Origin: a virus
Taxonomy: Duplodnaviria; Heunggongvirae; Uroviricota; Caudoviricetes
Virus record (IMG/VR): IMGVR_UViG_3300029190_000061
Location: 1 to 11,850 of that record
Reading direction: 5' to 3' (one strand)
DNA length: 11,850 bases
The position numbers and the translations under genes were made by a program. Under the pieces are notes generated by a model, which did not search any database, had not been told where the DNA came from, and saw nothing but the letters and a program-made list of their open reading frames with translations. How positions within the stretch are numbered: the first letter of the stretch is position 1; every line of letters begins with the position of its first letter. Below, piece by piece: positions 5,593 to 6,548 of the stretch.

Positions 5593-6009
5593 TCAGCTAG
5601 AATGGAAACCTTCTGCGACTTCAGCGAAGTAGCTGAGCAACCTAGTATCTCTTGCTGGCATACGATCGTGAGCTGGAGTGACTAGCCCCATCAGCAAAAA
5701 ACGCCCGCTATCCCACATGTGCTCGGTATAAACGAGATAGTGGTTTGAGGTTCGGTTGTAGTTCTCTTGCCTTGCGTTCCAGGTAAGCTGGAAATGCAAA
5801 TTGACGTGAATATGCTGGACATTAGCATCAACGGCGAACGGCGGGAAGTCAAATGGCGCATCTCGTCCAAGAAGATTAGATGGTGCGCCAGTTGATTTGT
5901 AAGTAATGAACTCGGATTTGAGCTGACTTTCTAGGTCAGGGTAAACGACAAAAGTGGGCTGAAAAAAATCATCCCACGTAACTTGACTGTATTCAGCCGT
6001 TAATGCCAT
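5593..6009 (-). CDS. YafO-family toxin-like protein (138 aa)
   Basis: From memory of E. coli YafO, shared blocks include FI(T/S)YK..G...GRDA, HIH, LVY and ARD...AE.F. Start overlaps the upstream gene stop by 10 nt (ATGGCATTAA). Confidence 0.55.
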   Translation of the reverse strand: MALTAEYSQVTWDDFFQPTFVVYPDLESQLKSEFITYKSTGAPSNLLGRDAPFDFPPFAVDANVQHIHVNLHFQLTWNARQENYNRTSNHYLVYTEHMWDSGRFLLMGLVTPAHDRMPARDTRLLSYFAEVAEGFHSS

Positions 6010-6548
6010 TTAGCCGCAGCCTTGTTGCCAGTCTCTAATAGATGGTTCATGGCTAAAAGGTTGACACCAGAGTCACGCACTACAGAAGTGCGTGTAATCT
6101 GATCAATCAGATTGAGATAGTTTTTGGTCGCAATACTGACCATTTTAATAGCCTTAAAAAACGCAAACTCAACAGTGTTTTTGTCGTAAGACATGATGAC
6201 GTCTTTTTCAGGTAACATCAAAACAAAAGATTCTGCGATACCGGCTACATGAATAGTTTGATTCTTAATTTCTTCCGCTACTTTGATAGCAGCAAAGAAG
6301 TCAGTGTCAGCATAATGAGCAAGTTCAGCGCGGCTTGAACGCAGTTCTTTAGCCAATTCATTGAGAGCAGCTGTAAGATCACTGATGTCGGTTTTGTTGA
6401 CTCTAGCGCCCATCTCATAAACCCGTTCTACAATCGTAGGCTGACACGCAACCGCTTTGGGTTGCGGCTGGATACTGGCAAGAACCAGTGCCACTGCTGC
6501 CTGCAAATGCTGGATTTTAAATTTCACGATAGACTCCATAATCGTCAT
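6000..6548 (-). CDS. Hypothetical protein (182 aa), putative partner or antitoxin of the YafO-like gene
   Basis: Track ORF directly upstream of and overlapping the toxin-like gene, the classic antitoxin-toxin order. About twice the size of YafN/DinJ-type antitoxins, with no motif I recognise. Confidence 0.5.
   Translation of the reverse strand: MTIMESIVKFKIQHLQAAVALVLASIQPQPKAVACQPTIVERVYEMGARVNKTDISDLTAALNELAKELRSSRAELAHYADTDFFAAIKVAEEIKNQTIHVAGIAESFVLMLPEKDVIMSYDKNTVEFAFFKAIKMVSIATKNYLNLIDQITRTSVVRDSGVNLLAMNHLLETGNKAAAKWH

What the first reader, a model, noticed from the sequence alone, without database searches (positions are those of the whole stretch)
5593..6548. YafO-like toxin paired with an atypically large, unrecognised upstream partner
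The 138-aa protein shares several sequence blocks with the YafO ribosome-dependent mRNA interferase family as I recall it. Its upstream partner is 182 aa, overlaps it by 10 nt, and does not resemble the short YafN/DinJ antitoxins. This could be a toxin-antitoxin or abortive-infection pair with a new antitoxin type, placed between the recombinase and the tRNA where accessory cargo tends to sit.
Basis: partly seen in the sequence, partly recalled or inferred. Interest (0 to 1): 0.5.

Follow-up and report, generated by a model that had tools for sequence, protein, structure and literature searches.

The report
YafO-type toxin with unknown partner protein
A phage-plasmid of E. coli carries a two-gene module, a YafO-family RNase toxin preceded by a partner protein from a tiny uncharacterised family that looks as if it is exported from the cell; it is probably a toxin-antitoxin pair with a new kind of antitoxin, but that is untested.

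Summary
ORFs 5593-6009(-) (138 aa) and 6000-6548(-) overlap by 10 nt.

**Toxin.** The 138-aa protein is a true Pfam YafO_toxin member (70.8 bits, cut-off 25). It is 31% identical to E. coli YafO, and its model has a RelE/HigB fold (pLDDT 91.7). NCBI annotation already names it a YafO-family toxin.

**Partner.**
- It most likely starts at GTG 6527, giving 175 aa.
- It matches no Pfam, PHROG, NCBIfam, PADLOC or PDB family.
- Its family is tiny: 24 representatives among 1.84 billion proteins.
- It is all-helical.
- In every relative, down to about 20% identity, it begins with a Sec-signal-like N-terminus. That is odd for an antitoxin.

**Pairing.** Partner and toxin always occur together. They share a conserved promoter-like region and sit in unrelated chromosomal sites and in four diverged SSU5-like phage-plasmid lineages. 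Both genes are under purifying selection (dN/dS about 0.1). Two independent deletions removed the toxin and kept the partner. I found no intact toxin without a partner.

**Verdict.** This is most likely a type II-like addiction or abortive-infection module with a new antitoxin family (confidence 0.55). The export-like N-terminus is unexplained. A 2026 plasmid paper already lists this kind of pair as a putative TA operon. I rate it a new variant of a known kind, of moderate interest.

The parts
5593..6009 (-). 138-aa YafO-family toxin gene (RelE/BECR-fold endoribonuclease candidate)
6000..6527 (-). Partner gene, 175 aa from GTG 6527 (the ORF extends to ATG 6548, giving 182 aa); an all-helical protein of an uncharacterised family and the putative antitoxin
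6447..6527 (-). Codons 1-27 of the partner: Sec-signal-like N-terminus MKFKIQH-LQAAVALVLASI-QPQPKAVA|C
   Evidence: All 12 distinct relatives have a positive n-region, an uncharged 11-residue hydrophobic segment and an AxA-like site. A fixed heuristic flagged 7 of 7 partners. Among 60 neighbouring gene products it flagged 8: 7 with membrane or export annotation and one unannotated 177-aa protein with a typical signal-peptide N-terminus. It flagged none of the roughly 40 annotated cytoplasmic proteins. The segment is translated and constrained, pN 0.08 against pS 0.48.
6000..6009 (-). 10-nt overlap of the partner stop with the toxin start (ATGGCATTAA), implying translational coupling
   Evidence: Homologues keep a 10-nt or 4-nt overlap or an 11-nt gap.
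6534..6537 (-). GGAG Shine-Dalgarno sequence 6 nt upstream of GTG 6527
   Evidence: Read from the sequence; conserved in the close family.
6562..6596 (-). Conserved promoter-like region TTAGCT-N18-TAGAAT that travels with the module
   Evidence: The same sequence lies upstream of the partner in plasmid, phage and unrelated chromosomal contexts. The strict consensus scan did not report it.
5491..5506 (-). Terminator-like hairpin plus T-run, 87 nt downstream of the toxin stop
5394..5422 (.). Perfect 11-bp-arm palindrome followed by TTTT on the - strand, between the toxin and the integrase
   Evidence: Read. Function unknown; it could be a second terminator or a recombinase or regulator site.
4189..5292 (-). 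Tyrosine recombinase, syntenic with the pair in SSU5-like phage-plasmids
   Evidence: Pfam Phage_integrase and PHROG integrase. Synteny at 57-100% identity in four lineages.
3796..4194 (+). HTH regulator convergent with the integrase; part of the conserved cassette
   Evidence: PHROG 8 transcriptional regulator, E 1e-10. Conserved at 43-60% identity in the other lineages.
3343..3352 (+). Left copy of the 10-bp repeat GT(G/T)CGGACGG bounding the 3.4-kb segment that phage SSU5 lacks
   Evidence: blastn of the window against the SSU5 locus: the left and right homology blocks overlap by 10 bp in SSU5.
6761..6770 (+). Right copy of the 10-bp repeat
6803..6877 (-). Phage-plasmid tRNA-Asn (context only)
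   Evidence: ARAGORN and Rfam at 76 bits. Present in SSU5. Absent near the cassette in the Klebsiella-type lineages.
5606..6038 (.). Segment missing in 14 E. coli plasmids: the toxin plus the last 13 partner codons
6232..6266 (-). Protospacer (6232-6263) plus AAG PAM (6264-6266) matched by a type I-E CRISPR spacer in six E. coli chromosomes

Best explanation
This is a self-contained two-gene toxin-antitoxin-like module carried by an SSU5-like phage-plasmid.

**Toxin.** The downstream gene encodes a YafO-family, RelE-fold endoribonuclease. When free it would cleave mRNA and stop translation. This is inferred from the family.

**Partner.** The upstream, translationally coupled gene encodes the cognate partner, from a new, very small, all-helical family unrelated to YafN/Phd. 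It keeps the toxin harmless. This is inferred from co-occurrence and from the pattern of gene loss.

**Expression.** The pair appears to be transcribed from its own promoter-like region (a conserved upstream element, not experimentally mapped).

**Role.** On a low-copy phage-plasmid the likely job is post-segregational killing, or abortive infection or competition with other phages. The trigger would be the partner no longer being replenished. The partner's N-terminal hydrophobic, signal-like segment and variable linker would then be what makes it short-lived, through proteolysis or through export.
For: **Toxin identity.**
- Pfam YafO_toxin above its cut-off.
- 31% identity to the experimentally characterised K-12 YafO.
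- A confident model whose best structural neighbours are HigB2, HigB1, RelE, YoeB and YafQ.
- Residues shared with the classic clade are retained.

**Module behaviour.**
- Every partner relative whose downstream DNA is available is followed by an overlapping or abutting gene of the 138-aa YafO clade. This holds down to 20-28% partner identity and in unrelated chromosomal sites, plasmids and phage contigs.
- The promoter-like region is conserved across those contexts.
- Both genes have dN/dS of about 0.1.

**Asymmetric decay.**
- One 433-bp deletion, found in 14 E. coli plasmids, removes the toxin and keeps the partner.
- An independent 397-bp deletion in Pseudescherichia vulneris does the same.
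- Where the partner is lost or truncated, the toxin is truncated too.
- No intact toxin without a partner was seen.

**Other points.**
- No tandem-repeat or known RNA antitoxin candidate is present.
- The antitoxin-then-toxin gene order is that of the PF_YafO family (PMC11980606).
- YafO toxins paired with unclassified partners were noted in 2011 (PMC3141249).
Against: - There is no experiment on toxicity or neutralisation.
- The partner has no recognisable DNA-binding domain. The only hint is RHH_1 at E 0.07, and the model has no beta strand.
- The partner has no structural relative among antitoxins.
- Its N-terminus looks like a Sec signal peptide in all relatives. If it is cleaved and exported, the mature protein and the toxin would sit in different compartments.
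- Neither protein matches a PADLOC defence model.
- The gene-loss asymmetry rests on few independent events: two toxin-only deletions.
Confidence: 0.55

Rival explanations
1. The partner really is exported or membrane-anchored and is not a sequestering antitoxin. Under this reading the pair is a two-compartment system, and the state of export or of the envelope (Sec activity, proton-motive force, phage entry or lysis proteins) sets how much precursor stays in the cytoplasm. That in turn decides whether the YafO-type RNase is held or released. One version is an antitoxin removed by export. Another is an envelope-sensing abortive-infection switch.
For: - The tripartite signal-like N-terminus is kept in all 12 distinct relatives although the sequence itself diverges.
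- It is followed by variable Ser/Thr/Ala-rich linkers in the distant members.
- The heuristic flagged no annotated cytoplasmic protein among 60 neighbouring gene products and flagged 7 of 7 partners.
- The best 19-residue hydrophobicity window is 1.6 or lower, which argues against a full transmembrane helix.
- In the Klebsiella-type lineages the cassette lies next to counter-defence genes (Acb2/Tad1-like, Sequestin) and a colicin M-like gene, that is, in a conflict-gene region.
Against: - The signal-peptide call rests on a home-made heuristic, not on SignalP or an experiment.
- Within the close family the N-terminal segment is the most conserved part of the protein, which is unusual for a cleaved signal peptide.
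- Translational coupling and toxin-first gene loss fit direct neutralisation.
- I found no precedent for an exported antitoxin in the literature searched.
Confidence: 0.25
2. The pair is passenger cargo of a small tRNA-Asn-targeting integrative island (integrase, regulator and the pair) that inserted into the phage-plasmid. Its position between recombinase and tRNA would reflect island architecture rather than a plasmid function.
For: Relative to phage SSU5, window 3353-6760 is an extra 3.4-kb block bounded by a 10-bp imperfect direct repeat, about 35 bp beyond the 3' end of tRNA-Asn. SSU5 lacks all four genes.
Against: - The same gene order, partner-toxin-integrase-regulator-cobT, is present in three other diverged lineages. 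There the integrase is 57-81% identical and CobT 41-60%, which suggests co-divergence with the backbone.
- The two Klebsiella-type lineages (integrase about 57% identical) have no tRNA within 5 kb. In the third lineage (L039, integrase 81%) the nearest tRNA genes lie about 2-3 kb upstream of the partner.
- The pair also occurs without any integrase in Erwinia, Pseudescherichia and other chromosomes.
- A 10-bp repeat fits deletion in the SSU5 lineage equally well.
Confidence: 0.1
3. The YafO-like protein is not toxic in this context, either because it is inactive or because it has been recruited to another role. On this view the two genes are co-inherited for some reason other than toxin neutralisation.
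For: - The toxin scores 52 bits against NCBI's YafO equivalog model, whose cut-off is 153.
- It belongs to a separate 138-aa clade with an N-terminal extension.
- About half of the E. coli plasmids with this locus have lost the toxin with no obvious consequence.
Against: - There is strong purifying selection on the toxin: pN 0.13 against pS 0.74 over the whole gene.
- Residues shared with the toxic K-12 protein are conserved.
- The fold is confidently RelE-like.
- Losses are asymmetric.
Confidence: 0.1

Closest known systems
E. coli YafN-YafO (dinB-yafN-yafO-yafP operon)
   Same: The toxin belongs to the same Pfam family (PF13957) and is 31% identical. The order is antitoxin then toxin, with adjacent or overlapping genes. 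The expected activity is mRNA cleavage that blocks translation (PMC11980606).
   Different: The partner is 175 aa, all-helical and begins with a signal-like N-terminus. YafN is a 97-aa Phd/YefM-type protein with no detectable similarity. There is no dinB/yafP context. The toxin belongs to a distinct 138-aa clade and fails the NCBI equivalog cut-off. The module is mobile and sits on phage-plasmids.
HigB2/HigA2 and HigB1 (RelE/ParE superfamily, BECR fold)
   Different: Sequence identity is only 8-10%. HigBA modules have the toxin first and HTH antitoxins.
Phage P1 phd-doc addiction module
   Same: It is a two-gene module on a phage-plasmid that would kill or arrest cells losing the prophage plasmid. 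P1, like this element, also carries a tyrosine recombinase (background in PMC7969092).
   Different: The toxin fold is unrelated (Fic/Doc kinase against a RelE-like RNase), and so is the antitoxin. The addiction role here is inferred, not shown.
Toxin-antitoxin-chaperone (TAC) systems, HigB1-HigA1-SecB-like
   Same: The toxin is a structural neighbour. The concept is similar: antitoxin stability is governed by a hydrophobic, aggregation-prone segment linked to the secretion-chaperone machinery. That concept comes from my own knowledge and was mentioned only in passing in PMC11980606.
   Different: There is no third chaperone gene here. The hydrophobic segment is N-terminal and signal-like, not a C-terminal chaperone-addiction tail. 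I tested no link to SecB.

Membership tests
Pfam PF13957 YafO_toxin | Whole-protein score above the Pfam gathering cut-off, with near full-length profile coverage | tested here: met
   70.8 bits against 25; profile positions 2-100 of 101.
YafO proper (NCBIfam NF007377 equivalog) | Score above the equivalog cut-off of 153 bits | tested here: not met
   52.1 bits. The protein belongs to a separate 138-aa clade.
RelE/ParE (BECR-fold) toxin superfamily | RelE-like alpha/beta fold | tested here: met
YafO family | Retention of the residues invariant across the family, including the toxic K-12 protein | tested here: met
   K38, D50, H68, Y94, P112, H114 and F135 are conserved. Which of them are catalytic is not established.
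YafNO-type TA system | Cognate antitoxin of the Phd/YefM (YafN) type | tested here: not met
   No BLASTP alignment to YafN. No PhdYeFM hit. The classic clade does have one.
YafNO-type TA system | dinB-yafN-yafO-yafP operon context | tested here: not met
   Searches compared with the window.
Type II toxin-antitoxin system (generic) | Bicistronic antitoxin-toxin operon with coupled genes that moves as a unit | tested here: met
   10-nt overlap; conserved pairing and promoter-like region across contexts.
Type II toxin-antitoxin system (generic) | Antitoxin with a DNA-binding domain that autoregulates the operon | tested here: inconclusive
   No HTH, RHH, AbrB or Phd domain was detected. RHH_1 scores E 0.07, below its cut-off, and the model has no strand. 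Autoregulation cannot be tested here.
Type II toxin-antitoxin system (generic) | Cytoplasmic protein antitoxin that binds and neutralises the toxin; the toxin alone is growth-inhibitory | not testable with these tools
   Only indirect evidence from gene-loss asymmetry. The signal-like N-terminus argues against a simple cytoplasmic location.
Known anti-phage defence systems (PADLOC-DB 2.0) | Match to a defence-system protein model | tested here: not met
   No hit for either protein at E up to 1.
Type III (RNA-repeat) or other RNA-antitoxin systems | Tandem repeats or a known antitoxin RNA next to the toxin | tested here: not met
   TRF finds only a weak 9-nt repeat at 5552-5579. Rfam finds only the tRNA above its gathering score.

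The most novel reading that the evidence does not exclude
The partner is a genuinely Sec-exported or membrane-inserted protein that nevertheless controls a cytoplasmic RelE-fold RNase. Either the antitoxin's short life comes from export rather than proteolysis, or the module senses the state of the envelope or secretion machinery, for example during phage entry or lysis. That would be a toxin-antitoxin logic not described so far.
Probability: 0.25. Interest if true: 0.75.

Novelty: new variant of a known kind. Interest (0 to 1): 0.45.

Why it matters
YafO is one of the least understood RelE-type toxins. It has no solved structure detectable by sequence, and its only characterised antitoxin is YafN.

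This work shows that a second YafO clade is tied one-to-one to a different, unclassified partner family, and that it rides on SSU5-like phage-plasmids of E. coli, Klebsiella and relatives. Those elements are of clinical interest.

If the partner is the antitoxin, it adds a new antitoxin family and a likely stability or defence determinant for these plasmids. If its signal-like N-terminus is functional, it would link toxin control to protein export, which is a new idea for toxin-antitoxin biology.

The frequent, clean loss of the toxin in E. coli plasmids also offers natural controls for experiments.

Tried and rejected
- **Partner family assignment.** Pfam, PHROGs, NCBIfam and PADLOC scans of the window protein, and Pfam on 13 diverse members, gave only scattered sub-threshold hits, each in a single member. 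PDB sequence profiles hit only designed coiled coils and ankyrin repeats.
- **Broad partner scan.** The wide partner alignment was too divergent for a genome scan. The subfamily A4 found nothing in viral contigs.
- **Lipoprotein reading of the Cys after AVA.** Rejected. AVAC is not a lipobox, the Cys is not conserved in relatives (S or R in some), and the spacing from the hydrophobic segment is long.
- **Internal start at the conserved Met in VYEMG.** Rejected as a general feature because distant relatives lack it.
- **RHH domain.** Rejected. The score is below cut-off and the model is all-helical.
- **RNA antitoxin.** No repeats and no Rfam hit.
- **Strict promoter scan.** It found no - strand promoter upstream of the partner. 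The promoter-like element is proposed from conservation only.
- **Literature.** Searches for an exported antitoxin or for this partner family found nothing specific.

Full report
**Where the window comes from.** The window is 99.3% identical over 11.3 kb to plasmid pRHB41-C15_2 of Escherichia fergusonii (IncFIB, non-mobilisable) and to many E. coli plasmids of about 105-115 kb. It is collinear with Salmonella phage SSU5: cobT, tRNA-Asn, small ORFs and DNA ligase at 86-91% identity. It is therefore a piece of an SSU5-like phage-plasmid.

**Observation.**
- The two ORFs exist as described: 5593-6009(-) of 138 aa and 6000-6548(-) of 182 aa, overlapping by 10 nt.
- An integrase gene lies at 4189-5292(-) and tRNA-Asn at 6803-6877(-).
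- The partner most likely starts at GTG 6527, giving 175 aa. A GGAG sits 6 nt upstream, most homologues start MKFKIQ at that point, and RefSeq annotates 528 nt.
- Both genes are real. Across 12 diverged pairs pN is 0.13-0.17 against pS of 0.65-0.74, and this includes the partner's N-terminal segment.

**The toxin.**
- It scores 70.8 bits on Pfam YafO_toxin, whose cut-off is 25, with almost full profile coverage.
- It aligns to E. coli K-12 YafO at 31% identity, E 1e-11.
- It scores 52 bits on NCBI's YafO equivalog model, whose cut-off is 153, so it is not an orthologue of YafO proper.
- A profile search splits the family into the classic 132-134-aa clade and a 136-147-aa clade to which this protein belongs.
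- No solved structure is detectable by sequence.
- The AlphaFold model built on 33 sequences is confident: pLDDT 91.7, pTM 0.88.
- K38, D50, H68, Y94 and H114 are conserved across both clades.
- The protein is thus a bona fide YafO-family member with a RelE-like fold. NCBI's annotation already names it so in the plasmid records.

**The partner.**
- It has no significant match in Pfam, PHROGs, NCBIfam or PADLOC. The same holds when 13 diverse members are scanned.
- It has no alignment to YafN and no meaningful PDB sequence hit.
- The family is very small: 39 clusters at 90% identity, all in Enterobacterales; 24 representatives with E of 0.001 or lower among 1.84 billion proteins; 12 of 185,579 species genomes.
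- The model is all-helical with a confident three-helix core at residues 51-155, pLDDT 85-91.
- Its structural neighbours are only generic helical bundles.

**An unexpected feature of the partner.** Every distinct relative starts with one or two Lys/Arg. Then comes an uncharged hydrophobic stretch of about 11 residues (mean Kyte-Doolittle 1.8-2.7), followed by a polar stretch with small residues in an AxA-like arrangement.
- In the window protein this reads MKFKIQH-LQAAVALVLASI-QPQPKAVA|C.
- Distant members read MKESITKITMAVTLALAGMSHNACA|D and MIKENLTKISAAVVMAFSAMSHTANA|E, often followed by Ser/Thr/Ala-rich linkers of variable length.
- A heuristic fixed in advance flagged all 7 partners tested. 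Among 60 neighbouring gene products it flagged 8. Seven have membrane or export annotation, such as periplasmic acid phosphatase, an outer-membrane efflux lipoprotein and a Tat-signal subunit. The eighth is an unannotated 177-aa protein with a typical signal-peptide N-terminus. None of the roughly 40 annotated cytoplasmic proteins was flagged.
- The best 19-residue hydrophobicity window is 1.6 or lower, so a full transmembrane helix is unlikely.
- This is a heuristic, not SignalP. Within the close family the segment is unusually well conserved for a signal peptide. I treat 'exported or membrane-targeted' as likely but unproven.

**Pairing.** Wherever downstream DNA is available, a partner relative is followed by a gene of the 138-aa YafO clade. 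The spacing is a 10-nt or 4-nt overlap or an 11-nt gap.
- Erwinia chromosome, between a chemoreceptor gene and dak.
- A Pseudescherichia-related chromosome, between exbD and an SDR gene (related genome loci).
- Other chromosomal sites.
- Pantoea, Enterobacter, Kluyvera and Leclercia replicons.
- Klebsiella phage-plasmids and further phage contigs.
- The most distant members, at 20-28% partner identity.
- The classic YafO clade instead sits in dinB-yafN-yafO-yafP with a Phd-type antitoxin.
- In the close family, about 80 nt upstream of the start codon travel with the genes, whatever the flanks. This stretch includes TTAGCT-N18-TA(G/A)AAT and the GGAG.
- A terminator-like hairpin follows the toxin.
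- The unit is thus a mobile module of about 1.05 kb with its own promoter-like region and terminator-like hairpin.

**Gene loss is asymmetric.** Among 5,426 complete E. coli genomes, 32 plasmids carry the locus.
- 17 have the intact pair.
- 14 share one 433-bp deletion (window 5606-6038, 8-bp microhomology). It removes the toxin and the last 13 partner codons and leaves a 164-aa partner ORF.
- One keeps only the 3' 316 nt of the toxin.
- In Pseudescherichia vulneris an independent 397-bp deletion at a locus with 98.9% identical flanks removes toxin codons 1-131 and keeps the partner.
- Where the partner is truncated in Enterobacter plasmids, the toxin is truncated too.
- I saw no intact toxin without a partner. 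The independent events are few, but their direction is what a toxin-antitoxin pair predicts.

**Context.**
- Relative to SSU5, window 3353-6760 is an extra 3.4-kb block: a 70-aa ORF, an HTH regulator, the integrase and the pair. It is bounded by a 10-bp imperfect repeat.
- The order partner-toxin-integrase-regulator-cobT recurs in three other diverged phage-plasmid lineages. There the integrase is 57-81% identical, CobT 41-60% and the partner 28-93%.
- The two Klebsiella-type lineages have no tRNA within 5 kb; in the third (L039) the nearest tRNA genes lie about 2-3 kb upstream of the partner.
- The cassette is therefore better read as an old, variably retained part of this phage-plasmid group than as a recent tRNA-targeted island.
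- The pair is also mobile on its own.

**Mechanism.**
- *Shown computationally:* family and fold of the toxin, coupling of the genes, co-inheritance, purifying selection and asymmetric loss.
- *Inferred from knowledge of the family* (Zhang et al. 2009; Christensen-Dalsgaard et al. 2010; as summarised in PMC11980606): the free toxin cleaves mRNA and arrests translation.
- *Inferred from the comparative pattern:* the partner prevents this.
- On a low-copy phage-plasmid the most economical role is addiction, or abortive infection or inter-element competition, by analogy with phd-doc of P1.
- The partner's N-terminal hydrophobic segment may be what makes it short-lived, through quality-control proteolysis or through actual export.
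- The alternative is that the partner works from the envelope and the module senses export or membrane state. The data do not exclude this, and it is the most novel reading.

**Known or new.**
- The toxin annotation is routine.
- YafO toxins with unclassified partners were noted in 2011 (PMC3141249).
- New here: the partner family is delimited, it is linked one-to-one with a distinct YafO clade, it carries a signal-like N-terminus, the module is mobile with its own promoter-like region, there are natural toxin-deletion alleles, and the cassette is syntenic across SSU5-like phage-plasmids.
- I rate it a new variant of a known kind, of moderate interest.

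Noticed in passing
window 6232-6266: Six E. coli chromosomes carry a type I-E CRISPR spacer 100% identical to window 6232-6263. This lies inside the partner gene, at codons NQTIHVAGIAE, its most conserved stretch. The protospacer has a canonical AAG PAM on the coding strand. E. coli has therefore acquired immunity against this phage-plasmid from this very gene.
   Followed up: partly
window 5606-6038: 14 of the 32 E. coli plasmids with this locus share one 433-bp deletion with 8-bp microhomology. It removes the toxin and the last 13 codons of the partner. 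These plasmids are natural toxin-minus controls.
   Followed up: yes
L004 5825-5879 and 6939-7000 (Pseudescherichia-related chromosome): The two-gene module is flanked by a direct repeat of about 55-62 bp that includes the exbD terminator hairpin. This may be a footprint of how the module inserted.
   Followed up: no
window 3343-3352 and 6761-6770: An imperfect 10-bp direct repeat, GT(G/T)CGGACGG, bounds the 3.4-kb block (orf70, regulator, integrase and the pair) that phage SSU5 lacks. It is compatible with either insertion or microhomology-mediated deletion.
   Followed up: partly
window 5394-5422: A perfect palindrome with 11-bp arms and a 7-nt loop, followed by TTTT on the - strand, lies between the toxin and the integrase. 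It could be a terminator or a binding site. A sub-threshold Rfam GAIT hit overlaps it and is probably chance.
   Followed up: no
window 6633-6652: A GC-rich hairpin (GGGGCCGAAGCCCC) flanked by A- and T-runs on both sides looks like a bidirectional terminator. It separates tRNA-Asn from the partner's promoter-like region.
   Followed up: no
L012 1291-3166; L008 1063-1753: In the Klebsiella-type phage-plasmids the cassette lies just downstream of a colicin M-like gene, an Acb2/Tad1-like gene, a Sequestin gene and a glutaredoxin gene. This is a conflict or counter-defence neighbourhood.
   Followed up: no
window 995-3292: The CobT-like protein (765 aa) has a long Asp/Glu/Ser-rich low-complexity insert at roughly residues 260-420, between its CobT and VWA parts.
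   Followed up: no
window 11343-11645: A 100-aa ORF at the window edge resembles the helix-turn-helix OrfA of an IS3-family transposase. This judgement is mine, from reading the sequence, and was not tested. The reference plasmid has an IS1 nearby, so this end of the region is a site of IS activity.
   Followed up: no
window 7621-7926 and 8271-8450: Small ORFs between the tRNA and the ligase gene encode proteins with hydrophobic N-terminal or transmembrane-like segments (PHROG 4507, unknown function). They are conserved in SSU5.
   Followed up: no
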